A stretch of DNA of 35,061 nucleotides, taken from positions 1-35,061 of IMG/VR virus record IMGVR_UViG_2654587570_000013; one strand, 5' to 3'. The position numbers were made by a program, and so were the translations under genes. Of the stretch, positions 1 through 35,061 are shown piece after piece. The notes below the pieces were generated by a model that was not told the DNA's origin, searched no databases, and saw only the letters and a list, made by a program, of their open reading frames with translations. Every line of letters begins with the position of its first letter. The first letter of the stretch is position 1. This stretch comes from a virus. Lineage: Duplodnaviria; Heunggongvirae; Uroviricota; Caudoviricetes.

Positions 1-387
1 ATGTTCAATATCATGATTCGTAAATTTGGCGAGATGACTTTCGAGAAAGCTGGTGTTGCGCGTACCGAAGAAGAAGCAATGGCCTTAGTTCTGGTAGCAC
101 TGAGATCATCACCTGAGATTATCGACGCTGAATATGTAGCCGCAGAAGGTGAGATTAAAGAGATTAAAGCAGTGGCTAAGGAATTAGGTGTTAAAGGTTT
201 CCGTAAGCTGAAACTATCCCGCGAGACTTATGTCATTGGACAGCAAGGACAATACCTAGATGAGAATAGCGCGATTGTCCTACTGAATAAGATCACCCGC
301 TATGGTTTCCAGATTGAGCAATATAAAACGTGTTTCGAATTATACGAAAAAGGTTTGCTGGATACTCTGACCATCGTTCGCGCTTAA
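1..387 (+). CDS. hypothetical protein (may be truncated at window edge)
   Basis: 128-aa ORF starting at window position 1; no motif recognised; followed by a hairpin plus T-run at 402-427. Confidence 0.4.
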   Translation: MFNIMIRKFGEMTFEKAGVARTEEEAMALVLVALRSSPEIIDAEYVAAEGEIKEIKAVAKELGVKGFRKLKLSRETYVIGQQGQYLDENSAIVLLNKITRYGFQIEQYKTCFELYEKGLLDTLTIVRA

Positions 388-401
388 TTAATTTCTAATT
401 T

Positions 402-427
402 GGTGGGTGCAATTCCCACCGCTTTTT
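402..427 (+). terminator. putative rho-independent terminator
   Basis: GGTGGG-tgcaatt-CCCACC stem-loop followed by gcttttt, immediately after the ORF ending at 387. Confidence 0.5.
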
Positions 428-444
428 AAACTGGAGAATCAAAC

Positions 445-525
445 ATGTTAGCTTTTATCTCATTCGTGGGAGGTAGTCTCACAACCATGATTAGTCTTTC
501 TTATATTGTCGTTAGTATGGGGTGA
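445..525 (+). CDS. small hydrophobic peptide (26 aa), speculative
   Basis: ATG at 445 preceded by ggag; translation MLAFISFVGGSLTTMISLSYIVVSMG is essentially one transmembrane segment. Below the ORF-track size cutoff. Confidence 0.2.
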   Translation: MLAFISFVGGSLTTMISLSYIVVSMG

Positions 526-528
526 GCA

Positions 529-654
529 ATGAAACAATTTCATGATGGCATTTCATCCAAGACATTCAAGAAAGAATATAGCGGATTGTGTATTAACTGG
601 ATTGATTTGATTGGTGCGGTTGTGTTTGGTTTGGTAATCAGCATCAACTTTTAA
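529..654 (+). CDS. small membrane peptide (41 aa), speculative
   Basis: ATG at 529; translation MKQFHDGISSKTFKKEYSGLCINWIDLIGAVVFGLVISINF has a C-terminal hydrophobic helix; sits between a terminator and the secreted-protein gene. Confidence 0.3.
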   Translation: MKQFHDGISSKTFKKEYSGLCINWIDLIGAVVFGLVISINF

Positions 655-699
655 CGATATAAATATATCGTAATTCAAATAACAAGAGGAAATTCTACT

Positions 700-945
700 A
701 TGAAAAAGATTATCGCGGGTGTTGTTCTTGCTCTGGGTTTGGTTGGTGCTGCAAATGCCGAACAATATGTACAGGGTGATAGTGTCAAGCGTGCTGCCGT
801 TGCACCTTCTTTAAATCAACTGTGTACTGAATTAGCACAGGTTGCCGGAGTTGGTGACGATGACGACTTTATTACTGCGTGTGTATGGAGTCATATCGAG
901 GATATTAATAAACGTGATGCAAAACTAACTGGAAAGAAATATTAA
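700..945 (+). CDS. small secreted/periplasmic protein of unknown function (possible moron)
   Basis: N-terminal signal peptide MKKIIAGVVLALGLVGAANA with an A-N-A signal peptidase I site; mature part has two Cys; SD agagga upstream; terminator at 962-998 downstream. Confidence 0.55.
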   Translation: MKKIIAGVVLALGLVGAANAEQYVQGDSVKRAAVAPSLNQLCTELAQVAGVGDDDDFITACVWSHIEDINKRDAKLTGKKY

Positions 946-961
946 TGACTTACTAACCAAT

Positions 962-998
962 GCCCCTATCGTTATAATACGCGGTAGGGGCGTTTTTG
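962..998 (+). terminator. putative rho-independent terminator
   Basis: GCCCCTA ... TAGGGGC stem followed by gttttt gttt. Confidence 0.5.
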
Positions 999-1010
999 TT
1001 TGGAAATGGT

Positions 1011-2690
1011 ATGAAAACTAAACTGTATTCGTATATTCGCTTCTCGTCTATGCGTCAGAATGATGGTTCGAGTTATGAACGACAAATCAGGATGGCGAGA
1101 GAGGTTGCGGCAAAGTATGACCTTGAACTGGTAAATGATTATCAGGATCTGGGTGTATCTGCGTTTAAGGGTGCTAACTCTAAAACAGGGGCGCTATCTC
1201 GTTTCCTTGATGCAATTGGTAGATCCGTTCCTGTTGGTAGCTGGCTATTCATCGAGAACTTGGACCGTTTATCCCGTGCCGATATTGTCAGTGCGCAGGA
1301 GTTATTCCTTTCAATAATCCGTAGGGGGATAACCATTGTTACTGGCATGGATAACAAGATCTACTCGCTGGATACTGTTACCGCTAACCCGATGGACCTG
1401 ATGTTCTCCATCCTTTTATTCATCCGTGGTAATGAGGAAAGCCAGACTAAGCGCAATCGTACTAACTCAAGCGCATTGATTAAGATTAAAGCTCATCAAG
1501 AAAATCCACAAAATCCGGCAGTGGCTATCGAGGAAGTTGGAAAGAATATGTGGTGGACTGATACCACTTCCGGTTATGTGTGTCCCGATCCGGTCTTCTT
1601 CCCTATTGTTCAGGAGGTTGTGGAATTACGCAGGAATGGACGGTCTACCGCCGAGATACTGGATCACCTTAACGCGACATATACACCACCACCAGCCGCA
1701 AGTCACAAGAGGCATTCAAACTGGTCACGAGCAATGATTGAAAGGTTGTTCCATACCCGCGCTTTGATTGGTATCAAGGAAATCTCTGTAGATGGCGTTA
1801 AGTATGAGTTAAAGGATTATTACCCTCGTGTGCTAGATGACGCTGAGTTTTATCACCTTAAGAAAAGCATTGGTGTTAGAGCATGTAACTATGGAGACAA
1901 AGAAGAAGCTAAACCGATCCCCCTGCTTAGTGGTGTTAATCTGCTGAAATGTGAACATTGCGGTTCCGCTATGGTTAAGGTGAAAGGAACTAACAAACGG
2001 CCTAACCAATATCGTTATTCATGCGATGCAATGCGCTCTAGTCGTATTGCATGTGTGCATACAAACTGGAGTTTTCGAGGTGATCAATTAGAGAAAGCTG
2101 TATTGCAATTGCTGGCTGATAAAATCTGGATTGCTGAGGATAAGGCTAATCCTGTTCCGGCTTTGAAAGTACAGATTGATGAGATATCACGCAAGATTGA
2201 TAACCTGATTACCCTTTCTGCTATGACTGGAGCAACGAAGGAGTTAGCCGACCAGATTACTACCCTCAATAGCGAGCGTGAAACACTCTATAATCAGATT
2301 AAGATGGCAGAAGAGGAAATGTATTCTGTGGACTCTCAAGGCTGGGAGAAGCTCGCAGAATTTGATTTAGAAGATGTTTATAACGAGGATCGCATTAAGG
2401 TCCGGTTTAAGATTAAGCAAGCTCTAAAACGGATCGGGTGTAGCAGGATTGACAAATACAAAAACTTGTTTGTATTGGAATACATTGATGGCAAGACCCA
2501 GAGAGTTGTAATAGAAAATTCAAGAGGACCGAGGAAAGGACAAATCTTTGTCGATTTGAAAACTATCAATGATAGGCAGATTCTGGAGAGTAACGGGCTT
2601 GTTCTGCATCCATGTTTAGACATGCTGACAGATAAAGACTGGAAGCCAGAAGAGGAAATACCAGGTCCATTACAGGAATTTGGAATTTAA
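1011..2690 (+). CDS. large serine recombinase (probable integrase)
   Basis: N-terminal resolvase-type catalytic domain with YIRFSSMRQ serine motif, a recombinase domain, a Cys-rich zinc ribbon (CEHCGS...C..C) and a C-terminal coiled coil. Start placed at MKTKL; the ORF track begins 15 nt earlier at 996. Confidence 0.85.
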   Translation: MKTKLYSYIRFSSMRQNDGSSYERQIRMAREVAAKYDLELVNDYQDLGVSAFKGANSKTGALSRFLDAIGRSVPVGSWLFIENLDRLSRADIVSAQELFLSIIRRGITIVTGMDNKIYSLDTVTANPMDLMFSILLFIRGNEESQTKRNRTNSSALIKIKAHQENPQNPAVAIEEVGKNMWWTDTTSGYVCPDPVFFPIVQEVVELRRNGRSTAEILDHLNATYTPPPAASHKRHSNWSRAMIERLFHTRALIGIKEISVDGVKYELKDYYPRVLDDAEFYHLKKSIGVRACNYGDKEEAKPIPLLSGVNLLKCEHCGSAMVKVKGTNKRPNQYRYSCDAMRSSRIACVHTNWSFRGDQLEKAVLQLLADKIWIAEDKANPVPALKVQIDEISRKIDNLITLSAMTGATKELADQITTLNSERETLYNQIKMAEEEMYSVDSQGWEKLAEFDLEDVYNEDRIKVRFKIKQALKRIGCSRIDKYKNLFVLEYIDGKTQRVVIENSRGPRKGQIFVDLKTINDRQILESNGLVLHPCLDMLTDKDWKPEEEIPGPLQEFGI

Positions 2691-2726
2691 GCGGACTAAA
2701 TCGACGTATAACGAGCTAAACACTTT

Positions 2727-2751
2727 AAGGGGTACATCTGTACCCCTTTTT
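2727..2751. terminator. bidirectional hairpin terminator between convergent genes
   Basis: Near-perfect palindrome AAGGGGTACA-TC-TGTACCCCTT with T-run on the plus side, between the recombinase stop (2690) and the convergent minus-strand gene end (2764). Confidence 0.5.
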
Positions 2752-2763
2752 AATTTAATTGTA

Positions 2764-3762
2764 TTAAAGAGCCTCTAAAGGGCTTAAATCGAGTTCTAAG
2801 TCTTCCGGTATTAAATCAGCTAACGGTGCATTCATCCACTGCGATAAATCTCGTTCTATGTCTTCATCACTAATGTAGTTGTTCAGATTGATTGCGTTGG
2901 TATCATCAAAATACATTGGCTTAGATGGGTTGGTGTGGATGTATTCATTGATGAATGATTTAACATCTTTCAGCTTGCTAATCGGTAGCGTTTCTGTGAA
3001 TCCGCTATTCATTACCTTACGTGGGATTTTCTTGCCCTGAATATTCTTTTTAATCCCCATTTCTAAATCACCAGCTTTCCATCCAATGTTAAACAAATGT
3101 GAGCATTCAAAGGTGATTTTCTCGCTGGTGTGCTTCTGGTGTTCTCTTACCCGTTGCATCGGATCTTTGCGAGTGGTAATTCCATATTTGAAAAACTTCT
3201 CGCCAACACGAATTAGATAAAAGTGCATAGAGCGCTGTGCAAACTTGTTTCTGATAACCTGTTTTCTACCATTCTGAATTGATTTAAGTACACCCCTAAC
3301 CAAAGGGCATGTTAACCCACCTTGTCTGCGGTTATTGTGTAAATCACCTTTCTTGTGAATCTTTCCGTGGCACTTACAACGAAGAATTAGTTTAGTGTCA
3401 ACACCCTGATAAGGTTCAGCCAGACCTAACACATCCCACCCTATCGGCTTGTAGAACTTGCGAGCGTTTTCTAAGTGTTCTTCTTCGGTAAATCTAAACT
3501 TCTTCTTAGGCGGTGATACTCTATCTTTGCCAGTAAACTGACCAGTTAGAACATGACTAATACATGGCGTTTTAACCTTTCCGTTAACTTCTATGCAAAC
3601 TTTGGTGTTCTGGAATGGTTTCTTTACAGGAAGCACAAAACCACTGTATAACCATCCATGCGCTTGACAAACTTTAATGATTCTGGTTTCATATTCGACC
3701 GGAGGGGTCGCACGTTTGCTTTTTGCGGTAAATTCGATATCCTTTGCTAAAGTAGTATTCAT
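2764..3762 (-). CDS. putative nuclease with Cys/His zinc-finger-like segment and a GIY-YIG-like motif
   Basis: 332 aa; mid-protein HFYLIRVGEKFFKYGITTRKDPMQRVREH resembles the GIY...YIG...R..H core of GIY-YIG nucleases; upstream CKCHGKIH...C cluster; acidic C-terminus. Confidence 0.45.
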   Translation of the reverse strand: MNTTLAKDIEFTAKSKRATPPVEYETRIIKVCQAHGWLYSGFVLPVKKPFQNTKVCIEVNGKVKTPCISHVLTGQFTGKDRVSPPKKKFRFTEEEHLENARKFYKPIGWDVLGLAEPYQGVDTKLILRCKCHGKIHKKGDLHNNRRQGGLTCPLVRGVLKSIQNGRKQVIRNKFAQRSMHFYLIRVGEKFFKYGITTRKDPMQRVREHQKHTSEKITFECSHLFNIGWKAGDLEMGIKKNIQGKKIPRKVMNSGFTETLPISKLKDVKSFINEYIHTNPSKPMYFDDTNAINLNNYISDEDIERDLSQWMNAPLADLIPEDLELDLSPLEAL

Positions 3763-3808
3763 AGTAGTGAATCCTCAATAAAATAATATTCACTACTATT
3801 TATAAGAA

Positions 3809-4066
3809 TTAATTATTGTAGTTTTGGAAACCAGTAAGATCACAAAATGAATCAGTATCATGTGCAGGAGAACGATGCTCTGCTTCGTCAGAGAAAATGT
3901 TGGCTACCGGAGATTCCACTTTAACTTCCAGTGCTTCTTCAACATCTGACTTAACTTCTTCGACCACTGGTTCAACTGCTGGAGATTCTTCTTTTGTTTC
4001 TTCAATGACGATCTCAGGTTCTTTCATTGCTTCAACCAGAGACGGATCAACTTCGTCGAATACCAC
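3809..4066 (-). CDS. small highly acidic protein (unknown; DNA-mimic-like composition)
   Basis: 85 aa, about one third Asp/Glu; apparent GTG start. The overlapping plus-strand Ser/Thr-rich ORF (3897..4121) looks like its antisense shadow. Confidence 0.35.
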   Translation of the reverse strand: MVFDEVDPSLVEAMKEPEIVIEETKEESPAVEPVVEEVKSDVEEALEVKVESPVANIFSDEAEHRSPAHDTDSFCDLTGFQNYNN

Positions 4067-4146
4067 TTTATCATCTGCGGTATATTTGTCTATAATGAAA
4101 AATGGTCAGAAATATAGCTAACGTCGCCAGCATATTCTAACAAAAA

Positions 4147-4166
4147 AGCGCCCACTGGAGGCGCTT
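4147..4166 (-). terminator. putative terminator at end of the late operon
   Basis: GCGCC-cactgga-GGCGC hairpin; on the minus strand it is followed by a T-run, immediately after the endolysin gene. Confidence 0.45.
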
Positions 4167-4171
4167 TAATT

Positions 4172-4525
4172 TTATCCATTCCACCGTGATTTTTTTGATC
4201 TGGAATCAATATGCGTAAAGGTTTTATATTTTCCTAAGCCGTATTGAGTAGGATATTTCCCATCAAGATAAGCATGAACAATATCAGGCGAGACACCCTT
4301 GATAACAATGTCAGCCGCGCGGCCTCGAACATGATAGCTATTGGTTGCGCCGCCTACATTCTTGTTATGAGTCGGGCAACGGTTCCCACTGTTAATAATC
4401 ACTGGTTTACCGAAGTGCTCTCGTACATCCTCAAGAATCACCAGTAATTCAGCGTCGATTGTATCATAATCACATTTTCCGCATTTACATTTAAATTCCT
4501 TGCGAGAAAAATGCTTACTTAACAT
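4172..4525 (-). CDS. peptidase M15 family cell-wall hydrolase (probable endolysin)
   Basis: SGNRCPTHNKNVGGATNSYHVRGRAADI ... FTHID matches the zinc-binding H/D/H signature of M15 peptidases; 117 aa, no signal peptide; last gene of the late operon. Confidence 0.8.
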   Translation of the reverse strand: MLSKHFSRKEFKCKCGKCDYDTIDAELLVILEDVREHFGKPVIINSGNRCPTHNKNVGGATNSYHVRGRAADIVIKGVSPDIVHAYLDGKYPTQYGLGKYKTFTHIDSRSKKSRWNG

Positions 4526-4534
4526 ATTACCCCC

Positions 4535-4882
4535 TTAGATCATTTCGAAGATATAACCAATAAAGCGCATACCCTTGATATAATAAGGAGCAGTGCCTAC
4601 ACACACCGCGCGTGCATCACCCAGACAGTTAAAGCTATAAGGATTAACTACATCGACTTCTTGCCCTACACGAAAACGATATTTAGGACGTTTAGCCAAT
4701 GTAGCGACACAAAACACGGTCCCCTTTTCATGATCACGGATACATTCTTTATATTGTTTATGTTTAACTCTCTTCGCCTCAAAATCATAGGTCATAGATT
4801 CTGGGCTAATGCCATTAATAAAAATACCGGAAAGCTGATCAACCGGATAAGTAGGAAATTCAGTGAAAATATTTTTAGCCAT
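4535..4882 (-). CDS. hypothetical protein
   Basis: 115-aa ORF co-oriented and tightly packed in the operon; no recognisable motif. Confidence 0.5.
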   Translation of the reverse strand: MAKNIFTEFPTYPVDQLSGIFINGISPESMTYDFEAKRVKHKQYKECIRDHEKGTVFCVATLAKRPKYRFRVGQEVDVVNPYSFNCLGDARAVCVGTAPYYIKGMRFIGYIFEMI

Positions 4883-4920
4883 GTTATACCCCCATAAGAT
4901 TCTATGAGGGTATTTATTGA

Positions 4921-5604
4921 TTAAACGTATTTCATGCGCGATTTAATGTGCTTATTGATGTTTTCAAGCATCATTGCTTCGTTGCTTTCCCACGATCCTA
5001 GCGTCGAATAACGAGTAGAAATTTTATCCGACTTAACGGCAACAATTCGCTTACTCTGTTTCTGGATGCGTTTCTCTAAGCGACGTTTTGCCACCGCCGA
5101 TCCATTCTTAGCGCGTTTGGTTCGGGATTTCTTAGGCTTGTACTTCTTCATGATAAAAGTCCCTTCCTTGTTCTCTACCTTGATGAAGTTGCCGTTTTCG
5201 ATGTTACGCATCATCTTACCGCCTTTGATGGCCTTAATGTTCCCGTGGGAGTCTAAGACCTTACCGTTGGCGATTGGCACTAGCTTATTGATTTTGCCAC
5301 CATCGAAATAGTGTTTCAGATAGTCATCCTGACTGCCGATCTTCTTGTCCTTATCCCTTGCGCCCTTGATGAAGATTTGGTGTCTGGTCCCTGATCGGTT
5401 CTTGTAGTTGGTATTACCTACAGCTTGCTGAGTCCAGCGAGTAGGTCTATCAACATTCTTGTTAATCTTCTTCTGGAGTGCACGAGCAGCAAAGATCGCC
5501 CCTTCCCCTATCGCCCTTTCGAATGTATCGGTTGCTTTATCAGTCCATTGGCGTAACGCTTTCTTTGTCCTTAGAGCGTTTCGTTTATTGGTACTGGTTG
5601 CCAT
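4921..5604 (-). CDS. very basic Lys/Arg-rich protein of unknown function
   Basis: 227 aa with long K/R-rich stretches (possible nucleic-acid binding or virion internal protein); SD AGGGGG upstream. Confidence 0.5.
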   Translation of the reverse strand: MATSTNKRNALRTKKALRQWTDKATDTFERAIGEGAIFAARALQKKINKNVDRPTRWTQQAVGNTNYKNRSGTRHQIFIKGARDKDKKIGSQDDYLKHYFDGGKINKLVPIANGKVLDSHGNIKAIKGGKMMRNIENGNFIKVENKEGTFIMKKYKPKKSRTKRAKNGSAVAKRRLEKRIQKQSKRIVAVKSDKISTRYSTLGSWESNEAMMLENINKHIKSRMKYV

Positions 5605-16327: not shown

Positions 16328-19300
16328 TTACCCTAATTTAGCTTCAATTGCAGCAAGACGTTCACGAAGAAGTTTATTTTCTTCGCTCATTTCTTGGACC
16401 GCTTTAATTAAAAGCGCGTTCACTGCGGAGTTTGAAATTGTTAAAATTTCTTCTGGGTTATCAAAACCACCAATTTTTGCGGTTTTAACAGCTTCCGGTA
16501 ATACCTCTTGTAAATCCTGTGCGATAATACCAATCTCATGACCTATAACTTCTCGGTCATTAAGAGATTTAACTTTATCGTAGGTTTTAACTTTGAGTTT
16601 ATTTACCTTATCCACCGCATTTTCTTCGTAATCTTCAACATTAATTTTCAGACGACGATCGGAACGAATATAAACATCGTTAAAGTTACCATTACCAGGA
16701 CAGTAAAAAGTACCATCATGATGGAACTCGAATACAGCTTGAGGGTGACCAGCCGCTGGCGATGCCTCCGCAGATCCAACACGAATAATTGCTTGCCCCC
16801 AATTTTGAGGAACACGACGCATACCAAAATCGACGGCAGTTGTATACCCTTGATTGGTGATTAAACTTCTTCCTTTGATAATCGGATAATAACAGTCCGG
16901 TGAAACATAGCCATGATCGACAAATATTGGCGCTTCTAAGCCCCATTGATCACCCCAACCTCCAGATTGGCTAGCAGTCCAACGTTCACCATGAACATAG
17001 AATCGAACGTTATTGACATGAGTCATTTCGACACCTTTTGGACTTAGCGCGATATCCCCCGCGTTTGTAATATTGATAGCAGCATTAGTAGCATAGCTAT
17101 AGAACGCTAATCCATTATCAGCACCACCTTTACCGATATACCAGTTGTTATTATCAGCACAAGTACCCAACAAATATATCGACGAATCGCCCGTTTCGGC
17201 ATTCATGATGATTGCGTCAGAACCACGATTAACTTTAAGTTTCCCGAAGAAGGTGTTTTTAATGGTATTATCACCCAATCGTTCAAATTCGGCTAAAAAT
17301 CCTTTTGAGTCACGAAGGCTTAAAACGTTATTTCGACCTGTATTGCTTGCCCCCCAATGGACGAGTTCCATATAGTCCATAGATTGACGAGAACCAGCTT
17401 TAAAGAAAAGATTGTCCTCAAGACGAGTGCTACCATCAATTCCAAGATGCAAACAGCGTGCGGTCGCTGTGCCACCTAGATCTAATCCACCACCAGCAAA
17501 ATCATAACTAAATGGTCTACGGCTATTCCACCCACCGAAAGAATCACCGTGATCTGTGGAAAGAATATGGAAGCTAGTTCCATCATTACGGAACATCAAA
17601 CCATAATTACCACCTTTAACAGCCAAACGAGCATTTTCAGATAATGCAACTTCGCTATTCATTACAATTTTCTGGCCTTTACCACCAGTAATATGTAATT
17701 CACCATCTTCAATCAGGTTTATCGAGTTTTGACCGTTATCATTCCACCAAATAAAATCTTTGGTTGTTCCATCACCGAAGCCAAACCAGCCATTACGAAC
17801 ATCTTGTCCAGTGCGATAATCCATGAAATTAAAATGGCTTGATTCGTTTGGTCCTCGACGAATATCAATACCAGAATTTCCACCAACACCACCATCCAAT
17901 GTTAATCTCTTGACATGTAACCCGGTTGTTGCTGTCAGCAATAATTCCTGATTTGTATCTTCGTATCCAGTAGCAAGACGATATGCGTTATCATCAACTG
18001 TCTCATGCCAGATAGTGGCAGGAGCAGAACTACGGAAGCGACGCAACATTTTCTTAGCATTTGTTTGCTGTTCGTTCAAATGCTCAATGTCATATTGGCC
18101 TTGATGGTTTCCAGCAAAATTTAACGTTCCACGGTTGCTAAAGTTATTGAACGATGAAATGTTAAGAGCATCAAAAATTTCATCTGCAACAGGTTTTTCA
18201 CCGCCCAGGTATTCAGGAGTATCCAACAGGTTTAAAGAAACACCACCGGAAGAAACTTGATATTCTGCTAAAACAAATCCTGTATGTGCACCATAGTAAG
18301 CGTAAAGATCATAATTGTCGCCATCGGTTGGAATAGCGCAAAAATGTTGTTCATAATGCCAAATAGTATAATACGCATTGAATACAACACCTTTCGGGCT
18401 ATTGTTGCCGCATCGAATCACCAATTCGATAATATTGGCTTGTCCATTCATCCCGACGTTATAACCGTTACCACCAACTAAGCGGATCTTAGCACTACGA
18501 CCGTGTTGCTGTGGCATTGTCAAAGTGCCTAGTTTAAACCAACCACCCTCGATCCCAAAATTAAGCGTCTTCTGGAACAGTCGGTCAATTTCTGCTTTCG
18601 AATATGCGCCAATTTCGGCAGGAGTAGGTTTATCACCTTCATGATACATGCGGTGAGAATATGCCAAATGACCCAATTCATCATAGCCGTATGTTCTTAC
18701 CGTATGAACCGGATTAGACCCATAAGTGAACTCAAAGCCACGAGCATGATTAACACCAGATGGATGCGGAACATGCAAGATCATTGCAATATGACCCGCC
18801 AGGTCATTCATGCGGAATGCACCAAAGTAATCAAGATTACGCGCATTTGGATCATCAAAATAGTTTGCGGTCTTAGACAGCAAATAACCATCAGTATAAG
18901 TGTTTACGTGTTTTTTGATGTACTTGCCATCAGCAGATCCATCGGCTGCATCAATACGGCTTTCTAAGCGTGCCAATTCAGAATCAGTGTAAGACTTGTT
19001 ATTGTCAACTTTGCTATGAATTGCTGTATTTTTGGCTTCAACATCACGGGTTAATGCTGCGACGTTATCCGCTGCCTCTTGCTTATTGGCTGCAATCACA
19101 CCAGTAAGGTTATTGTAGGTGTCAGTTAACTGATTTTCCGCATAGACTTTATTTGCTGCGATAGTGCGGTCAGTTTCTGTCTTAATCAGATCAACTTTGT
19201 CATTGATTGCTTTGTCATTACTTGCGATTGTCGCGTCGGTACGGGATTTAATATCATCAACTTTTTTATTGATGCGGGTATCCAGTTCCTGGGTTGCTAC

Positions 19301-19738
19301 AGCAGCCGCATTTTTATTAGCGTTGATGGTATCCGACAATTCAGCTTTAACACCAGCAAGGTCGGAAGCAGCTTTATTTTTATTGGCCTCGATTGTCGCG
19401 TCGGTTTCGCGTTTAATTACATCAACTTTATTGTTAATTTCTGCGTGATTTGCTGCGATGGTTGCATCAGTAGTTTGTTTAATTTCATCTACTTTAGCGT
19501 GAATATTGCGGTCATTTACTGCAATTGTGCTATCCAGTTCTTGTTTGTTAGCATCAACTTTAGATTCTAGTGCCGCGTGAGTTTCAGGAGAAACAGAGAT
19601 TTGAACTACTTCATGATCTCGGTCTTTGGTAAAAATAACATGGTCTTTAAGGTTGATTGCTACCTCACCGACCTGTAATTGTTCCGGCGTTGGTTTTTTG
19701 CCAGAAACATTTGTTCGTTTAAATTGGATCGACTGCAT
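16328..19738 (-). CDS. tail fibre/tailspike with C-terminal intramolecular chaperone (peptidase S74-type) domain
   Basis: 1136 aa; N-terminal array of roughly 22-aa shaft repeats (KVDxIKxxTDATIxAN); C-terminal ~110 aa has the S-DxRxK autoproteolysis signature (YIRS/DRRLK) and a terminal coiled coil, as in T5 L-shaped fibre and K1F endosialidase chaperone domains. Confidence 0.85.
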   Translation of the reverse strand: MQSIQFKRTNVSGKKPTPEQLQVGEVAINLKDHVIFTKDRDHEVVQISVSPETHAALESKVDANKQELDSTIAVNDRNIHAKVDEIKQTTDATIAANHAEINNKVDVIKRETDATIEANKNKAASDLAGVKAELSDTINANKNAAAVATQELDTRINKKVDDIKSRTDATIASNDKAINDKVDLIKTETDRTIAANKVYAENQLTDTYNNLTGVIAANKQEAADNVAALTRDVEAKNTAIHSKVDNNKSYTDSELARLESRIDAADGSADGKYIKKHVNTYTDGYLLSKTANYFDDPNARNLDYFGAFRMNDLAGHIAMILHVPHPSGVNHARGFEFTYGSNPVHTVRTYGYDELGHLAYSHRMYHEGDKPTPAEIGAYSKAEIDRLFQKTLNFGIEGGWFKLGTLTMPQQHGRSAKIRLVGGNGYNVGMNGQANIIELVIRCGNNSPKGVVFNAYYTIWHYEQHFCAIPTDGDNYDLYAYYGAHTGFVLAEYQVSSGGVSLNLLDTPEYLGGEKPVADEIFDALNISSFNNFSNRGTLNFAGNHQGQYDIEHLNEQQTNAKKMLRRFRSSAPATIWHETVDDNAYRLATGYEDTNQELLLTATTGLHVKRLTLDGGVGGNSGIDIRRGPNESSHFNFMDYRTGQDVRNGWFGFGDGTTKDFIWWNDNGQNSINLIEDGELHITGGKGQKIVMNSEVALSENARLAVKGGNYGLMFRNDGTSFHILSTDHGDSFGGWNSRRPFSYDFAGGGLDLGGTATARCLHLGIDGSTRLEDNLFFKAGSRQSMDYMELVHWGASNTGRNNVLSLRDSKGFLAEFERLGDNTIKNTFFGKLKVNRGSDAIIMNAETGDSSIYLLGTCADNNNWYIGKGGADNGLAFYSYATNAAINITNAGDIALSPKGVEMTHVNNVRFYVHGERWTASQSGGWGDQWGLEAPIFVDHGYVSPDCYYPIIKGRSLITNQGYTTAVDFGMRRVPQNWGQAIIRVGSAEASPAAGHPQAVFEFHHDGTFYCPGNGNFNDVYIRSDRRLKINVEDYEENAVDKVNKLKVKTYDKVKSLNDREVIGHEIGIIAQDLQEVLPEAVKTAKIGGFDNPEEILTISNSAVNALLIKAVQEMSEENKLLRERLAAIEAKLG

Positions 19739-19767
19739 CGAATCACCTCACTATAAAACAGGAATAA

Positions 19768-19785
19768 GGGAGGCGTTAACCTCCC
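19768..19785 (-). terminator. hairpin (attenuator) between V-like gene and fibre gene
   Basis: GGGAGG-cgttaa-CCTCCC stem-loop; flanking sequence only moderately T-rich. Confidence 0.3.
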
Positions 19786-19811
19786 GCGTCATGTTTTATT
19801 TAGAGAAGCAA

Positions 19812-20645
19812 TCAGTATTCCCCGAAGTCGATCCGGTCATGGATAGAAACGGCTTCAATCTCGGCTGGTGTCGGTTTTTCTTCTGTGGAATACACTTTCA
19901 CCCATCCAGAATTACCGTCTTTCTGGACTGTGCGAACTCGTAAACGTGGTGCGCCGGAAGCGGTGCAAGTTAATTGCCATCCACCATCTTCATTAGGTTG
20001 AACGTGAATTAGTGAAGTATCAGCACTAAATGGATTAGATACGCTCGATCCCTGATAAGTTACGAAACGGTTTCCGGCTAATGCTTCGCTATCAATCGGA
20101 CCTATGAATGGGCTAACGCCTGAACCTACGCCATAATCCCCTTGTCGCAGAATTTTTCCCTCGGTCGCGATACCCCTTGCAAGAATCCCGCCATCTGGTT
20201 CAAGTTTAAATTCCAGTGTTACAGCTTTGTTATCTGCGCCACGGGTTTTATGTGATGTGACGTAAGCATCGAATATACAAAAGTACCCTGTGTTAGCAGC
20301 ACTATAGCCAGAGTTCACAACATAGAACATACGGAAGCGTAAAGGTGTTTTATCCTCTACCGCTTTCATCAACATTGCTTGATGTTCGTCATCCAGAACA
20401 CGGTTTAACGTGAGTGTTGTCGGTTCCAGTTTACGATAACCAGCAAGTTTCCCCGTAGCGTCCTGGTCATACTCTTCTAACGTCTGGATCTCTGTGGATT
20501 CGGTTATCGTCGGAAATGCTGCGATGTTCTCGATAGGACTAAAGCTAGGATCGAAAAAGTCCGGCTGGTTATCCACCATAGTAGACACGGAGACTTCAAC
20601 ATGCGACCCCGTGAAAATGTCTAAGTTATCTTGTGTAATATTCAT
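19812..20645 (-). CDS. tail tube-fold protein with C-terminal extra domain (lambda V-like major tail protein or tail terminator)
   Basis: 277 aa; TLTLNRVLDDEHQAMLMKAVEDKTPLRFRMF resembles the same V-like segment; C-terminal ~100 aa beta-rich domain carrying a KPTPAEI motif also present in the fibre. Confidence 0.5.
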   Translation of the reverse strand: MNITQDNLDIFTGSHVEVSVSTMVDNQPDFFDPSFSPIENIAAFPTITESTEIQTLEEYDQDATGKLAGYRKLEPTTLTLNRVLDDEHQAMLMKAVEDKTPLRFRMFYVVNSGYSAANTGYFCIFDAYVTSHKTRGADNKAVTLEFKLEPDGGILARGIATEGKILRQGDYGVGSGVSPFIGPIDSEALAGNRFVTYQGSSVSNPFSADTSLIHVQPNEDGGWQLTCTASGAPRLRVRTVQKDGNSGWVKVYSTEEKPTPAEIEAVSIHDRIDFGEY

Positions 20646-20654
20646 TATTACCCC

Positions 20655-21077
20655 TTAAAAACGCGCTAGATAAGAAAATTTAAGGCTAAGTGTCCCAACG
20701 ATACCCCCATCACTAGAATCATCGTCATAATCGGTATTAGAGGCTACTGGAGTGATATCTGAAATAGAGAAGCCCAAATCTTTAAAACGTGGATTATCCG
20801 GCTGAATCTGGATTATCTGGCAAATACCCTCATGAATTTTGGTTTCATGATTCTGAGAATACAACTGCATTTCGATAACGCATTCAGCTTGCATTGCATT
20901 ACCACCACGGACCCTATTGTAAGTCTCATTCATTCCGGTAATCCAACAAACCACGTCATCACTAAAGCCTTGCTGAGTTTGTTCTACGTTTAAAGCCAGA
21001 CCTAAATCTTGTTCGATAATATCCTGCAAGGCGCGTTTGATTTTCAGTCTAGGCATATTATTAACGGTAGCGAGCAT
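20655..21077 (-). CDS. head-tail joining / tail completion protein (by position)
   Basis: Start placed at MLATVNN, which has a GGGGG SD; the ORF track extends to 21125. Located between the capsid and tail genes. Confidence 0.45.
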   Translation of the reverse strand: MLATVNNMPRLKIKRALQDIIEQDLGLALNVEQTQQGFSDDVVCWITGMNETYNRVRGGNAMQAECVIEMQLYSQNHETKIHEGICQIIQIQPDNPRFKDLGFSISDITPVASNTDYDDDSSDGGIVGTLSLKFSYLARF

Positions 21078-21351
21078 GTGTACCCCCTGCACGAGCAATA
21101 AAGCAATCAGAAGTATTATCACCATTGCGCTTAACGTATTGAACTTTGAAACGCTGATTTTCTACAGTGACAACATCACCCTGATTTAAGTCTCCCTCAC
21201 GACAAAATAGAAATTCTGTCTCTGTCATTACCCCTTGTTCGTCGGTAGTAGTAATTTCATGATAAGCACGAATTGATTTACCACCTTCCACCGAAAATAC
21301 AGGAGCACTTCGGAACATTCTTGATAATTGTGATTCTGATAATTTGAACAT
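21061..21351 (-). CDS. head-tail connector protein (by position)
   Basis: 96-aa ORF immediately downstream of the capsid gene and its terminator. Confidence 0.45.
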   Translation of the reverse strand: MFKLSESQLSRMFRSAPVFSVEGGKSIRAYHEITTTDEQGVMTETEFLFCREGDLNQGDVVTVENQRFKVQYVKRNGDNTSDCFIARAGGTHARYR

Positions 21352-21386
21352 AGTTACCCCCTTTATGGAGTATTTACATACAAAAA

Positions 21387-21408
21387 AGCCCCACCGTTAG
21401 GCAGGGCT
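21387..21408 (-). terminator. weak hairpin plus T-run after the capsid gene
   Basis: AGCCC ... GGGCT stem; on the minus strand followed by TTTTTTG. Confidence 0.3.
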
Positions 21409-21545
21409 AATTATTATTTTGCTTTAGTCTTACGTTCTTTTTTAACTGTGGCTTTCGCCGTAACCGTCTGAGATTCTTCTTCCTGAGATGGAATCAGATT
21501 TTCTTCCCCCAAATCGGGGGAAGGTTCAGATGGTTCTACGTTATT

Positions 21546-23558
21546 TCATTCAGCGGAGATGTGAAGAACTTTCAGAGCTTCCGGCTGAACTACGGTGAAG
21601 TCCAGGTCTACCCAGATACGCGGAACGATAGCAGACTGTGCGCGGTAAGTGGTGTCGTCCATATCCAGTTCCAGACCACCCCATTCACCGATCATGATAC
21701 CGGAGAAGTCACCCAGAACGATGTGGTCTGCCGGAATAACGCCAGAAGTAACTACATCGTAACCAGCCAGTTTGCCGTTTTCGATGATATAACCGGAAAC
21801 GCCGTTATCTTTCAGGGTAGATTCCAGTTCAGCAGCAGTTGCACCGCTCATTGCAAACTTGATGGACTGTGCCGGAACGCCAGCGTCGGTCAGTGCTGCA
21901 ATTTCTTTCAGGAAGTCTTTGTAAGAGAAAGCAGCTTTCTTAGTAACGCGACCACCGTCTACCAGTTGCTTAACCAAACCTTTCGGACCGCGAGTATTGT
22001 CTTTGTCAGACAGAATCAGTTGTTCCAGTTTGATGCGAACAGCTTTGTTAATATGATCAGTGATCAGGGTAGCAATATTCGGAACAGTTTTCAGAGACTG
22101 ACGGCTGATCGGGTTGCCACCAGCAAAAGTTTTCGGAGCCATTTTCACGTTTTCAAAGGTAGCCTTCGACTCGGGGGCACTTCCATTTTCGTCTACAAAA
22201 CCAAAGGCATCAACGCTGGAAGCAGTCATTTTCGGTACAGCGATCGGGCTATTCAGACCAGACAGGACGGTCACGCCCAGACGACCCAGACACGAAGCAG
22301 GAAGCAGCATTTCGATGTATGATTCAGTCAGCAGTTTTTCGTCAGTTACAGCGGTCAGAGTAGTTTTGGTGTTACCATCAGCAGCAGCACGCAGAGCAGC
22401 AGCCGGAACGAATACAGAGCCACCGCGAGCAGCACGACCACGCTGCATTGCAGCACCAGCAGCCATAGCGGAATATTCAGCTTCGTTAGCACCCAGAGCA
22501 GCACCATCTACCAGAGAGCGAATTACGTTGTTCAGGTCAAAAGTTTTTTCCATTTTAGAGTCCTTAATTTGTTGTTCGTTGTTACGTTGAGCAGTAGCGA
22601 TTTTATTTAGTGCCTTAGTGCGGAATGCTTCCGGCGTAATTTCTTTATTTGCCAATGCGCGTTTAAATTCTTCATCGTCTTCGTTAATATTTAGCTCGCG
22701 AGCGATCTCGCGAATTTCTAATTCGTCTTCTTCGGAACGTTCAGCCACTTCTTCGATTTTTTCTTCTTCAACCGGAGCGGCTTCACGTTCTTCTTTTACT
22801 TCTTCTGCTTCCCGAACAGTTGAACTATCATCATCAACACTTTCAGGATGTTCAGCGTCTTTTCCGTCTTCGAGATTTTCATTTTCTTTATTCTCTTCAA
22901 CTTGGCGCTCTTGAGTTTCTTCAACTTCCGGTTCTTTATTTTCTTCTACCGGAGTTTCTTCAACCTGAGCGGCTTCTTGTTCTTCTTTGATTTCTTCGAT
23001 TTGTTCTTTAGTCATATCGCGTTTAGCCTCCAAATTAACTGTGATAGTATTTAGAGAGCGATTTAAACCGACCGAATCATCAGCAGGAACGGTGACAAAT
23101 GAGAGTTCATAGGGCGCCCACTTAGTAACAATCAATTGCCCTTTGGCGTAATCGATGTGATATTCTTTAATGTCATAGCCGACAGAAATTTTTTCCATCG
23201 TACCTTCAATGACTTTATTGCGAATATCATTAGCCAAAGTGCCATGCTTAGAGAATTTAACCAGAGCACGACCTACGTTATCCGCATCGATTCGAGCGTC
23301 GCAGACTACACCTAAATGATTATCGAAATTATGATTGAACAGCAACGGAGCGTTATTATTCAGACGAGACAGATCAACCGCTTCCGGTGTATGTACCAGA
23401 ATTTCATCTAGTACCACCATCTCTTGATTTTGCTCATCCCAGAATTGGCGCTGATACGGCTGTTCACTGGAGAAAGCAATTTCAAATTCGTATTGATCGT
23501 TATGCCCTTCGTTAATAACTCCACCGTAACCGTTAAGATCGCGGCGAAATTTAAGCAT
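21546..23558 (-). CDS. prohead protease - acidic scaffold-like linker - HK97-fold major capsid protein (single ORF)
   Basis: 670 aa; N-terminal ~170 aa protease-like, central ~150 aa extremely acidic/coiled-coil, C-terminal ~330 aa Ala/Gly-rich capsid-like region; strong codon bias; internal ATG at 22553 has an AAGGA SD. Confidence 0.7.
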   Translation of the reverse strand: MLKFRRDLNGYGGVINEGHNDQYEFEIAFSSEQPYQRQFWDEQNQEMVVLDEILVHTPEAVDLSRLNNNAPLLFNHNFDNHLGVVCDARIDADNVGRALVKFSKHGTLANDIRNKVIEGTMEKISVGYDIKEYHIDYAKGQLIVTKWAPYELSFVTVPADDSVGLNRSLNTITVNLEAKRDMTKEQIEEIKEEQEAAQVEETPVEENKEPEVEETQERQVEENKENENLEDGKDAEHPESVDDDSSTVREAEEVKEEREAAPVEEEKIEEVAERSEEDELEIREIARELNINEDDEEFKRALANKEITPEAFRTKALNKIATAQRNNEQQIKDSKMEKTFDLNNVIRSLVDGAALGANEAEYSAMAAGAAMQRGRAARGGSVFVPAAALRAAADGNTKTTLTAVTDEKLLTESYIEMLLPASCLGRLGVTVLSGLNSPIAVPKMTASSVDAFGFVDENGSAPESKATFENVKMAPKTFAGGNPISRQSLKTVPNIATLITDHINKAVRIKLEQLILSDKDNTRGPKGLVKQLVDGGRVTKKAAFSYKDFLKEIAALTDAGVPAQSIKFAMSGATAAELESTLKDNGVSGYIIENGKLAGYDVVTSGVIPADHIVLGDFSGIMIGEWGGLELDMDDTTYRAQSAIVPRIWVDLDFTVVQPEALKVLHISAE

Positions 23559-23604
23559 TTAATCACCTTTAATTAATTGGGGGCATTGCGCCCCCCGTTG
23601 GTTA

Positions 23605-25116: not shown

Positions 25117-25126
25117 GATTTACCCC

Positions 25127-25621
25127 TTATCGCGTAAGACGTAATTTGATATTTTTAATCGGGCTAATTCCCTGTTTACGTCGTTCGGCTTGAATTAATT
25201 TTGATAACTGACGTTCATAATCGACTTTTAGAGTCTGGAGAACAGCCAATGACTCATAGGCGAAAGTATTCCCTTTCACTGTCATTGCTGATAATGCGGC
25301 TTCGTCCCCAGATAAACGGGCGAAAATAACTTGCTCGATTAAGGCGATAGTTTCCCGCAGATATTCTTTTTTGGATTGTTTGGCGAATACTGGTAAAACA
25401 GTTAATTCCTGCATTGATACCAGTTCTTCTTCCAAAGTGGTTACGATGGTATATTTACCTTCGGCAAAATCTAAGGTTTTGATCTCATGATTAGCCGGAG
25501 TATCATCAACCTGATAAATGATACCTTTACTATTTCCTACCTGAATTGTTACACCCTCTTCATTCGCCAGCGTGATTTTTTCGCCTTTACGAATTACTAA
25601 GGGAATTAGTTCTAAACTCAT
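25127..25621 (-). CDS. hypothetical protein between terminase and portal genes
   Basis: 164-aa ORF in operon context; no motif recognised. Confidence 0.45.
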   Translation of the reverse strand: MSLELIPLVIRKGEKITLANEEGVTIQVGNSKGIIYQVDDTPANHEIKTLDFAEGKYTIVTTLEEELVSMQELTVLPVFAKQSKKEYLRETIALIEQVIFARLSGDEAALSAMTVKGNTFAYESLAVLQTLKVDYERQLSKLIQAERRKQGISPIKNIKLRLTR

Positions 25622-25693
25622 AATTACCCCTTATTTAATTGTTATTGGATTAACAATATTTAGGAGTAAGCCGCCCCGAAGGACGGCGAGTTA

Positions 25694-28285: not shown

Positions 28286-28314
28286 AGGTGAACATTCACT
28301 TTAATTTGGAGAAA

Positions 28315-34755: not shown

Positions 34756-35061
34756 ATGAAGACTAAAGATATTAAGATTGAATTTGAAACTGTTGATGAC
34801 GTTCGGGAACATCGCATTGATTCTACTGGCTGCATCTTCCAGCTTACTAACTCCCCTATTGGATTGATTATCTATGTAGCAGAAGATGACGTGTACGCTA
34901 TATGGGATGGACAGGATGAGTTTAAAGGCGGGAATAGCCATCTGATCAATACTCATGAGGGATTTGATCCGACTCCTGTCTGTATGCTTGCTTATCACGT
35001 AACACTGGATGAACTACCGGAAGCAAGCGCGCGTATCCGTAGAATGAAAGACATTAAGTGA
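34756..35061 (+). CDS. hypothetical protein
   Basis: 101-aa ORF with AGGG SD and an upstream TTGTCAAG-containing promoter-like region; ends at the window edge with a stop codon. Confidence 0.45.
   Translation: MKTKDIKIEFETVDDVREHRIDSTGCIFQLTNSPIGLIIYVAEDDVYAIWDGQDEFKGGNSHLINTHEGFDPTPVCMLAYHVTLDELPEASARIRRMKDIK

What the first reader, a model, noticed from the sequence alone, without database searches (positions are those of the whole stretch)
996..2760. Large serine recombinase implies a temperate lifestyle; attP not identified
Serine integrases usually act on an attP within a few hundred bp of the gene. The immediate flanks contain only terminator-like hairpins. One of them (2727-2751) is a near-perfect palindrome around a central TC dinucleotide, which is also the general architecture of serine-integrase att cores, although a bidirectional terminator is the simpler reading.
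Basis: inference. Interest (0 to 1): 0.4.

Follow-up and report, generated by a model that had tools for sequence, protein, structure and literature searches.

The report
Prophage serine integrase targeting hicB

Summary
The ORF (real start ATG 1011, stop 2690, 559 aa) is a large serine recombinase. It has Resolvase, Recombinase and Zn-ribbon Pfam domains. The AlphaFold model matches serine-integrase/att complexes, and the catalytic and zinc-ligand residues are conserved.

The window is an integrated prophage trimmed to gene boundaries. A Logan contig that is 100% identical to it supplies the flanks. The prophage splits E. coli hicB. attL lies 42 nt before window position 1 and attR 88 nt after position 35061.

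Rebuilt attP is a 26+2+26 imperfect palindrome, GTTATTGGGGTTTACAACATTTAGGT-TT-GCCTAATATAATGCCCCCACAATAAC. Its centre is 1,052 nt upstream of int. Comparing junctions across relatives narrows the crossover to a 2-bp TT.

Relatives use three intragenic attB sites: hicB, ycdX and codB. In 23 of 23 integrase/site pairs, site choice tracks 29 substitutions, 28 of them in the two DNA-binding domains. The window carries the hicB allele.

The flagged hairpin (2727-2748) is a terminator. Its stem is conserved, its loop varies, it is absent in some relatives, and it is always internal to the prophage.

Verdict: the temperate reading is right and the attP candidates are wrong. This is a new member of a known kind, of moderate interest.

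The parts
1011..2690 (+). Large serine recombinase (integrase) gene, 559 aa plus stop. The ORF finder's TTG at 996 is an upstream in-frame alternative start.
   Evidence: Pfam PF00239, PF07508, PF13408. (phrog_95 integrase, E 1.4e-58). (AF2 pLDDT 81; Foldseek top hits are serine integrase-att complexes 9dxf/9dxh, PhiC31 9rah and LI 4kis).
1011..1502 (+). Catalytic N-terminal domain plus long helix E (aa 1-164). The nucleophile Ser12 codon is at 1044-1046, in the motif YIRFSSMRQ. The D85-R86-x-x-R89 motif is also here.
   Evidence: R10, Q16, D85, R86, R89 invariant; S12 conserved in at least 90% of 54 homologues; motif aligns with YTRVSTSIQ of resolvase 3guv; secondary structure.
1581..2120 (+). 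DNA-binding modules: recombinase domain (aa ~191-300) and zinc-ribbon domain (aa ~301-370; Cys314, 317, 338, 348). These carry the hicB-type specificity allele.
   Evidence: 28 of 29 site-diagnostic residues lie at aa 196-351, and the window has 28 of 29 hicB-type residues; the four Cys are invariant.
2154..2318 (+). Helical hairpin (aa 382-436), the coiled-coil motif of serine integrases.
   Evidence: helices 382-406 and 410-436; full-length alignment to integrase-att cryo-EM structures.
2346..2687 (+). Extra C-terminal alpha/beta domain (aa 446-559) of unknown role.
   Evidence: strands 472-533, block pLDDT 67-89; the PHROG integrase profile ends at aa 485; conserved 72-81% in Salmonella and E. 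fergusonii homologues.
2727..2748 (+). Intrinsic terminator of int (9-bp G+C-rich stem, 4-nt loop, T-run).
   Evidence: stem conserved, loop variable, element absent in L005/L006.
959..994 (+). Terminator-like hairpin ending the upstream small secreted-protein gene (700-945), just before int.
1..387 (+). First prophage gene. Its ATG is the window edge. The attP P' arm (26 nt) plus a 16-nt spacer lie immediately upstream, outside the window.
   Evidence: Logan contig SRR19671051_85, 100% identical to the window. (phrog_14908, unknown function).
34756..35061 (+). Last prophage gene. Its stop codon is the window edge. A 62-nt spacer (with a terminator-like hairpin) and the 26-nt attP P arm follow, outside the window.

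Best explanation
The 559-aa protein is the integrase of a ~35.2-kb temperate siphovirus-like phage of E. coli. The window is the integrated prophage cut at its first ATG and last stop codon, so it holds neither attP arm. In the circular phage genome the two window ends are joined by a 132-nt intergenic stretch: 62-nt spacer, 26-nt P arm, TT, 26-nt P' arm, 16-nt spacer. That stretch contains attP = GTTATTGGGGTTTACAACATTTAGGT-TT-GCCTAATATAATGCCCCCACAATAAC, centred 1,052 nt upstream of int.

Inferred mechanism, as in characterised serine integrases: integrase dimers bind attP and the host site attB (...CTCCTGTTTAGGT-TT-GCCAATTCGCC...) inside hicB. Ser12 makes 2-nt staggered cuts at the central TT, subunits rotate, and the ends are religated conservatively. 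TT is not palindromic, so it fixes the orientation.

Integration cuts HicB at about codon 104, inside its C-terminal helix-turn-helix. It leaves hicA and the N-terminal part of hicB in place.

Shown here: domain content and fold, conserved catalytic residues, exact junctions, conservative 2-bp exchange, and covariation between site and allele. Inferred: catalysis, directionality control, present-day activity, and any effect on HicAB.
For: (1) Family: Pfam domains; an AF2 model with NTD, helix E, RD, ZD, coiled-coil hairpin; Foldseek E 8e-16 to 1e-14 to full-length serine integrase-att complexes and 1.6e-9 to the LI integrase-DNA complex 4kis; catalytic and zinc residues conserved across 54 homologues.

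(2) The window's own context: Logan contig SRR19671051_85 is 100.000% identical to window 1-5190 and 17494-35061. Its flanks are the two halves of hicB. attL plus attR reconstitute K-12 hicB with no gain or loss of bases.

(3) Two-bp crossover. The identity shared by attL, attR and attB is TTTAGGTTT in L003 and TTGCCAA in L005 at the same hicB site, which intersect at TT. It is exactly TT at ycdX (L001). It is TTACC, beginning with TT, at codB.

(4) In all four attP variants the TT sits at the exact centre of a 26+2+26 imperfect palindrome. The hicB- and ycdX-type variants share outer GTTATTG(G/T)GG repeats, the codB type has a different outer repeat (TTGTGGTGG / ATGTGGTTGG), and all have inner TTnGGn-like motifs next to the core.

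(5) Specificity sits in the integrase. In 23 integrase/site pairs (16 hicB, 7 ycdX), 29 residues are diagnostic of the site. 28 lie in aa 196-351 (RD and ZD); none lie in the NTD, coiled coil or tail. The two NTD alleles assort independently of site.

(6) All 10 displayed contigs that encode exactly the window's integrase lie next to ydcR/hicB.

(7) The RefSeq annotation of L001 and L003 lists no other recombinase gene in the prophage, and Pfam/PHROG scans of the accessory ORFs found none. Insertion-sequence transposases occur in some copies, such as L005.

(8) Empty sites are the rule: 5,323 and 5,411 of 5,426 genomes match the hicB and ycdX host segments, and about 57 carry the prophage.
Against: No excised or circular form with an intact attP was found in IMG/VR or JGI metagenomes. 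The single hit was a chance match in a Bacteroidetes outer-membrane receptor gene. There is no experimental evidence of integration, excision or induction. No recombination directionality factor or repressor was recognised. At hicB alone the window's attP and attB share 12 bp (TTTAGGTTTGCC), so for this phage by itself the crossover is placed at TT only by comparison with relatives and by symmetry. Shared ancestry of prophages in related strains inflates the 23/23 covariation count (12 and 7 distinct protein sequences).
Confidence: 0.9

Rival explanations
1. The palindrome at 2727-2751 is the attP core of the integrase.
For: Perfect 10-nt arms around a 2-nt centre, 37 nt downstream of the int stop codon.
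Against: It lies about 2.7 kb inside the prophage in every integrated copy. The 'central' bases vary (ATCT, ATTC, TTA) while the G+C stem and T-run are kept. The whole element is absent from L005/L006, which integrate at hicB all the same. The true junctions are elsewhere.
Confidence: 0.01
2. The 28627-28666 element (two palindromic TCCAAATCTGGA 12-mers) is attP.
For: A repeated palindromic motif in an intergenic region between two terminators.
Against: It is internal to all prophage copies. The prophage ends map to the window edges. It has no resemblance to the att arms.
Confidence: 0.01
3. The serine recombinase is an accessory enzyme, like the YbcK-type recombinases carried by lambdoid phages, and another unrecognised protein integrates the phage.
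For: The closest proteins in the phage collection are YbcK-like genes of lambda-like E. coli phages (some annotated YbcK or recombinase family protein, ~31% identity) and Burkholderia phage recombinases (27-31% identity). That lambdoid phages integrate with a tyrosine integrase is from my own knowledge, not from a tool result. Many ORFs of the window have no known function.
Against: No tyrosine integrase, DDE transposase or second recombinase appears in the window or in the annotated L001 and L003 copies. Exchange is confined to 2 bp at the centre of a 54-bp imperfect palindrome, the signature of serine integrases. Site choice covaries with the recombinase's DNA-binding domains and with no other gene near the ends: gene 1 and the last gene occur with both sites.
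Confidence: 0.03
4. The recombinase is a low-specificity, transposase-like serine recombinase (TnpX/TndX style) that inserts at many sites.
For: Three different target genes are used within one closely related family.
Against: Each target is hit at one and the same nucleotide in every copy examined. Each target goes with its own RD/ZD allele. Only these three sites were seen in 57 complete genomes.
Confidence: 0.02
5. The integrase and att sites are as described, but this copy is a grounded prophage that no longer excises or forms particles.
For: No intact attP or circular form in the collections searched. No cultured relative in 50,697 phage records: TerL is at best 44.7% identical. No RDF or repressor recognised.
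Against: The structural and packaging ORFs scanned, and the integrase, are full-length, and the copies compared show intact integrase reading frames. The family is mosaic and scattered over hosts and continents, with most genomes unoccupied, which argues for ongoing horizontal spread.
Confidence: 0.15

Closest known systems
Characterised phage large serine integrases (Bxb1, PhiC31, Listeria A118/LI, TP901-1, SPbeta SprA)
   Same: Same domain order: catalytic NTD, helix E, recombinase domain, zinc ribbon with an inserted coiled coil. Same site anatomy: an attP of about 50 bp with imperfect dyad symmetry, a non-palindromic 2-bp crossover, conservative exchange, attB inside a host gene, and little attP/attB identity.
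   Different: Only 13-16% sequence identity to any solved integrase. phmmer finds no solved large serine integrase at E<=5; its only relevant hit is the catalytic domain of resolvase 3guv (E 0.0023). It has an extra ~110-aa C-terminal alpha/beta domain. The host is an enterobacterium. attP is about 1 kb from int, with two small genes in between, rather than adjacent. No RDF is identified.
Burkholderia phage Bcep176 gp53, Bcep22 and JC1 serine recombinases, and YbcK-type recombinases of lambdoid E. coli phages
   Same: These are the nearest proteins in the phage sequence collection, with 27-31% identity over 80-85% of the length. All match the same PHROG (phrog_95).
   Different: They are distant, and from unrelated phage types. 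In this window the enzyme is the only recombinase, and the junction evidence ties it to integration.
Unnamed 'recombinase family protein' clusters of E. coli/Shigella (91-99%), Salmonella and E. fergusonii (67-77%) and Edwardsiella (59%)
   Same: Same family, same length, same prophage type, same att architecture with a TT core.
   Different: They differ mainly in the RD and ZD domains (52-63% identity against 75-91% for the NTD) and in target: ycdX in Salmonella, codB in E. fergusonii and E. coli 39EVA. None carries a functional name or, as far as I could find, a publication.
Prophages that interrupt host genes and restore them on excision (SPbeta in spsM)
   Same: A serine-integrase prophage sits inside a coding sequence. 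Precise excision would restore hicB, ycdX or codB (PMC5499854 for SPbeta).
   Different: There is no evidence here for regulated, reversible excision or for any host benefit. This is an analogy only.

Membership tests
Large serine recombinase / phage serine integrase | N-terminal resolvase-type catalytic domain with the nucleophilic Ser in an R-x-S-x-x-x-Q motif and the D-R-x-x-R motif | tested here: met
   PF00239, E 9.7e-15, 55 bits against a cut-off of 23. Motif Y8-I-R10-F-S12-S-M-R-Q16 and D85-R86-L-S-R89. R10, Q16, D85, R86, R89 are invariant and S12 is conserved in at least 90% of 54 homologues. The motif aligns to resolvase 3guv.
Large serine recombinase / phage serine integrase | C-terminal recombinase domain (RD) followed by a zinc-ribbon domain (ZD) with four Cys ligands | tested here: met
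   PF07508 (32 bits against 21.1) and PF13408 (37.6 against 25.3). C314, C317, C338 and C348 are invariant. Foldseek matches the LI integrase C-terminal domain-DNA complex 4kis with TM 0.58 on the target.
Large serine recombinase / phage serine integrase | Coiled-coil motif inserted in the ZD, which controls synapsis and directionality | tested here: met
   The AF2 model has an antiparallel helical hairpin at aa 382-406 and 410-436 directly after the ZD. Full-length alignments to the integrase-att cryo-EM structures 9dxf, 9dxh and 9rah. This is a model only; its function is not tested.
Large serine recombinase / phage serine integrase | attP of ~50 bp and attB of ~40 bp with imperfect dyad symmetry around a central dinucleotide, and little other identity between them | tested here: met
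   attP rebuilt from the window's own flanks is 26+2+26 with outer GTTATTG(G/T)GG inverted repeats. attP/attB identity is 2 bp at ycdX, 5 bp at codB and 7-12 bp at hicB. The minimal functional sizes were not determined.
Large serine recombinase / phage serine integrase | Conservative exchange with a 2-bp staggered crossover and no target duplication | tested here: met
   attL plus attR equal attB plus attP base for base. The crossover interval narrows to TT by intersecting two phage types at hicB, and directly at ycdX. The cleavage chemistry itself is not observable in silico.
Large serine recombinase / phage serine integrase | Integrase alone catalyses attP x attB; excision needs a phage-encoded RDF | not testable with these tools
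   No RDF candidate was recognised by Pfam or PHROGs. This needs an in vitro or in vivo recombination assay.
Small serine recombinases (resolvases/invertases) | About 180-200 aa, with a C-terminal helix-turn-helix DNA-binding domain, acting on res or inversion sites | tested here: not met
   The protein is 559 aa with RD, ZD and coiled coil in place of the HTH. The phrog_125 DNA invertase match is weak and limited to the N-terminal part.
Tyrosine integrases | Phage_integrase (R-H-R-Y) catalytic domain, with a 6-8 bp overlap region | tested here: not met
   No such domain in the recombinase or in the ORFs scanned, and none in the RefSeq annotation of relatives. The crossover is 2 bp.

The most novel reading that the evidence does not exclude
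This prophage family offers a natural allelic series of one serine-integrase scaffold. A few dozen substitutions confined to the RD and ZD domains (29 fixed differences between the hicB and ycdX alleles, and a more diverged codB allele) retarget integration between three unrelated host genes. Meanwhile the attP arms stay nearly interchangeable: the P-arm variant GTTATTTTGGGTTGACTACATTCGGG is found joined to both hicB and ycdX, and the P' arms differ by one base. If the substitutions are causal, they form a compact natural map of how attB recognition can be reprogrammed without rebuilding attP. Separately, the hicB allele removes only the DNA-binding helix-turn-helix of the antitoxin, so lysogeny could rewire HicAB autoregulation.
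Probability: 0.35. Interest if true: 0.55.

Novelty: new member of a known kind. Interest (0 to 1): 0.35.

Why it matters
For the scan, this closes the open item. The phage is temperate, its integrase is identified, and attP, attB and the crossover dinucleotide are now explicit sequences that can be ordered and tested.

For biology, it documents a common prophage lineage with no cultured representative. About 1% of complete E. coli genomes carry it, and it also occurs in Shigella, Salmonella and E. fergusonii. It always lands inside a coding gene: hicB, ycdX or codB.

For engineering, it adds a Gram-negative serine integrase only 13-16% identical to any solved integrase. It comes with three natural attB/attP pairs and a short list of candidate specificity residues. 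None of this changes how serine integrases are thought to work.

Tried and rejected
1. I searched the window for attP-like sequence with exact motifs and then with mismatch-tolerant scans of the 54-mer and of both half-sites, including the artificial end-to-start junction. Nothing exceeded chance.

2. I looked for an intact attP (excised or circular phage) with a degenerate pattern. IMG/VR gave 0 hits. JGI metagenomes gave 1 hit, which was a chance match inside a Bacteroidetes SusC-like gene.

3. I tried to find the window's source among IMG/VR contigs with its terminal 33-mer and 38-mer. This gave only 90-98% relatives, all in hicB. The exact context came instead from protein look-ups of the integrase and terminase.

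4. I tested whether the gene next to attL (window gene 1) or the last gene determines the site. Both occur with hicB and with ycdX, so this was rejected.

5. I tested whether the P-arm variant determines the site. One variant occurs with both sites, so this was rejected.

6. GTDB species representatives yielded no useful relatives: a 512-nt contig and one weak hit.

7. Literature searches covered hicB or ycdX prophage integration, the attB core sequences, and the held supplements of Durrant et al. 2022. There was no prior description. The supplements held may be truncated, so a prior computational listing cannot be excluded.

8. A sequence search of the PDB found no integrase. Only the fold search did.

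9. Rfam found nothing in the window.
Full report
**What is at the coordinates**

The ORF finder lists 996-2690 (+) from a TTG. The in-frame ATG at 1011 gives the 559-aa protein MKTKLYSYIRFSS..., which RefSeq annotates in every relative. Pfam finds Resolvase (aa 6-153), Recombinase (198-286) and Zn_ribbon_recom (310-368), all above their gathering scores. PHROGs assigns it to phrog_95, integrase, at E 1.4e-58.

The flagged hairpin exists exactly as described. Its arms are 2727-2736 and 2739-2748, 100% complementary, with TC between them. A T-run follows, and the site scores as terminator-like. It folds at -14.5 kcal/mol, z = -3.8. A second terminator-like hairpin lies at 959-994, upstream of int.

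**What the window is**

The window begins with the ATG of an ORF and ends with the stop codon of another. It encodes a terminase (large and small subunits), portal, a fused protease/major capsid protein, tape measure, tail tip and tail fibres, an M15 peptidase and a Rha-type regulator.

It has no close relative among 50,697 phage records. Only a 258-bp stretch matches at the DNA level. The terminase is at best 44.7% identical to that of any deposited phage.

In contrast, 60 of 5,426 complete E. coli chromosomes hold 93-95% identical prophages. The window is therefore a prophage trimmed to gene boundaries, not a packaged genome.

**Mapping the junctions**

In strain UTME-8 the prophage splits ycdX. 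In UTME-9, 14EC017 and O55:H7 DEC5A it splits hicB. I aligned these junctions with the intact K-12 genes.

At hicB:
- attB is ...CTCCTGTTTAGGT-TT-GCCAATTCGCC...
- The bases shared by attL, attR and attB are TTTAGGTTT for the UTME-9 phage type.
- They are TTGCCAA for the 14EC017 type.
- The only bases common to both are TT.

At ycdX:
- attB is ...TTCATATTTGGGA-TT-TCCGGGATGGC...
- The shared stretch is exactly TT.

A third site, codB, turned up in E. coli 39EVA and in E. fergusonii. There attB is ...CCCGGTTGCC-TT-ACCCACCGG... and the shared stretch is TTACC, again starting with TT.

In every case attL plus attR add up to attB plus attP with no duplicated or lost base. In every case the TT sits in the exact centre of a 26+2+26 imperfect palindrome. 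In the hicB- and ycdX-type variants the outer ten bases are inverted repeats (GTTATTG(G/T)GG); the codB type has a different outer repeat (TTGTGGTGG / ATGTGGTTGG). The bases next to the core follow a TTnGGn-like pattern that also appears in the attB half-sites.

A 2-bp non-palindromic crossover at the centre of a site of about 50 bp is the hallmark of serine integrases. This is established knowledge from Bxb1, PhiC31 and A118.

**The window's own att sites**

Exact-sequence look-ups of the window's integrase and terminase led to Logan contig SRR19671051_85 (50,986 nt). It is 100.000% identical to window 1-5190 and 17494-35061.

Its flanks give:
- attL = ...GGCGAGTAATCTCCTGTTTAGGT-TT-GCCTAATATAATGCCCCCACAATAAC-ACGAGGGGGTACAACA|ATG (window position 1)
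- attR = (window position 35061)|62 nt-GTTATTGGGGTTTACAACATTTAGGT-TT-GCCAATTCGCCTGGC...

Hence attP = GTTATTGGGGTTTACAACATTTAGGT-TT-GCCTAATATAATGCCCCCACAATAAC. The phage genome is 35,193 bp. The attP centre lies 1,052 nt upstream of the int ATG, with gene 1 and a small secreted-protein gene in between.

Both arms lie outside the window: 42 nt before its start, and 62-88 nt after its end. That is why a reader of the window could not find attP. A mismatch-tolerant scan of the window also finds nothing above chance (29/54 against 28-30/54 in shuffles).

The 2727-2748 hairpin lies about 2.7 kb inside every integrated copy. Across relatives its G+C stem and T-run are conserved, but the supposed central dinucleotide is not: the loop is ATCT, ATTC or TTA. 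In 14EC017 and DEC5A the element is replaced by other DNA, yet those phages integrate at hicB. It is the terminator of int. Only the + strand has a T-run.

The 28627-28666 element consists of two palindromic TCCAAATCTGGA 12-mers between two terminators. It is likewise internal to every copy. Neither element is attP.

**Is the recombinase the integrase?**

Four lines of evidence say yes.

1. It has the full architecture. The AlphaFold model (pLDDT 81) shows the catalytic domain, a long helix E, RD, ZD, a helical hairpin at 382-436 (the coiled coil) and an extra alpha/beta domain at 446-559. Foldseek's best hits are full-length serine integrase-att complexes (9dxf, 9dxh, E about 1e-15), the PhiC31 integrase-attL complex and the LI integrase-DNA complex 4kis. 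Sequence identity to these is only 13-16%.

2. The catalytic residues are conserved. R10, Q16, D85, R86, R89 and the four zinc cysteines are invariant, and S12 is in the 'at least 90%' class, in an alignment reaching down to 27% identity.

3. It is the only recombinase gene in the window. The RefSeq annotation of the UTME-8 and UTME-9 copies lists no other. Some other copies carry insertion-sequence transposases.

4. Site choice tracks its DNA-binding domains. In 23 integrase/site pairs (16 hicB, 7 ycdX; 12 and 7 distinct sequences), 29 positions are fixed differently between the groups. 28 of them lie at aa 196-351, and none lies in the catalytic domain, coiled coil or tail.

Several controls support point 4:
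- The two catalytic-domain alleles (about 79% identical) assort independently of site.
- Gene 1 and the last gene occur with both sites.
- One P-arm variant is joined to both hicB and ycdX.

The window's enzyme combines the A-type catalytic domain with the hicB-type RD/ZD (28 of 29 diagnostic residues). All ten displayed contigs that encode exactly this protein lie next to ydcR/hicB. Across Salmonella, E. fergusonii and Edwardsiella homologues, RD and ZD are the most diverged parts (52-63% identity against 75-91% for the catalytic domain).

**Distribution**

The RD/ZD coding segment occurs in 57 of 5,426 complete E. coli genomes:
- 30 at 95% identity or more (hicB type)
- 25 at 80-90% (ycdX type)
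- 2 at 60-80% (one of them, 39EVA, is in codB)

The corresponding host segments are present in 5,323 and 5,411 genomes, so empty sites are the norm. The protein collection holds hundreds of near-identical sequences from E. coli and Shigella, and 67-77% relatives from Salmonella (inserted in ycdX) and E. fergusonii (inserted in codB). All are named only 'recombinase family protein'.

**Consequences for the host (inferred)**

The hicB crossover falls at about codon 104 of 138, between the second and third helices of the C-terminal helix-turn-helix. The product is HicB(1-104)+CCKPQ, and hicA stays intact. The ycdX crossover leaves 135 of 245 residues. The codB crossover lies about 360 nt into a 1,260-nt gene. 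Whether this matters physiologically is untested.

**What is not shown**

No circular junction was found in public contigs. No directionality factor or repressor was recognised. No experiment exists. For this phage alone, attP and attB share 12 bp, so the TT assignment rests on relatives and on symmetry. I found no publication describing these integrases or sites. However, large computational catalogues of serine recombinases exist, and their supplements were only partly searchable.

**Verdict**

The inference of a temperate lifestyle is correct. The proposed attP candidates are wrong. The attP, the attB (hicB) and the crossover dinucleotide are now defined.

The system works like a textbook serine integrase and passes every membership test that can be run in silico. 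It is a new, divergent member of a known kind. Its modest extra interest comes from the three natural target specificities, which are encoded by swappable RD/ZD alleles.

Noticed in passing
window 3826-4083 (ORF 3809-4066, minus strand): A 258-bp stretch is 97-99% identical at the DNA level to the 'inhibitor of prohead protease' gene of T4-like Krischvirus phages (GEC-3S, Ec_Makalu and others). It is the only near match of the first 8 kb to any of 50,697 phage records. This suggests recent gene exchange between a virulent myovirus and this temperate prophage. The locus is variable among relatives.
   Followed up: partly
window 28628-28639 and 28655-28666: Two copies of the palindromic 12-mer TCCAAATCTGGA, 27 nt apart start to start, lie between two terminator hairpins upstream of the Rha-type regulator gene. 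The element is not att. It could be an operator or a packaging-related site.
   Followed up: partly
window 30964-31090, within the ORF-free stretch 30425-31640: At least seven iteron-like copies of AGTGTAGG(T/G)TT occur at roughly 11- and 22-nt spacing in a 1.2-kb region with no ORF of 45 aa or more. This looks like a candidate replication origin or regulatory array. Rfam finds nothing there.
   Followed up: no
window 2764-3762 (minus strand): A 332-aa endonuclease-like gene (phrog_681; the gene at this position is annotated GIY-YIG nuclease in strain L3Cip3) lies convergent with int. It is present in some relatives and replaced in others. Relatives L005/L006 also carry a NUMOD3-domain gene inserted in the tail module. 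These look like mobile homing-endonuclease genes.
   Followed up: partly
L100/L101 (E. coli 39EVA), L097-L099 (E. fergusonii), L092-L096 (Salmonella): A third attachment site lies inside codB (cytosine permease). It goes with a more diverged integrase allele and a different outer attP repeat (TTGTGGTGG). Salmonella homologues (69-74% identity) use the position in ycdX equivalent to the E. coli site.
   Followed up: yes
NZ_CP063332.1 (E. coli BS74R-D), L056 and hit H137: One chromosome carries an attL in hicB at about 452.7 kb and an attR in ycdX at about 10-11 kb. This is consistent with two related prophages of different site specificity living in the same cell.
   Followed up: partly
window 1011-2687, aa 446-559 of the integrase: An extra C-terminal alpha/beta domain follows the coiled coil. 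It is conserved 72-81% in Salmonella and E. fergusonii homologues, is not covered by the PHROG integrase profile beyond aa 485, and has no assigned function.
   Followed up: partly
window 700-945: A small ORF with a signal-peptide-like N-terminus (MKKIIAGVVLALGLVGAANA) lies between attP and int. It has no family match and may be a lysogeny-expressed accessory gene. In relatives this slot holds 81-aa or 137-139-aa variants.
   Followed up: no
L089 (JANCAF010000145.1, 512-nt contig of an Actinacidiphila cocklensis assembly): A 512-nt contig in a Streptomycetaceae genome assembly encodes an 83%-identical fragment of this enterobacterial integrase. It is probably contamination of that assembly.
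   Followed up: no
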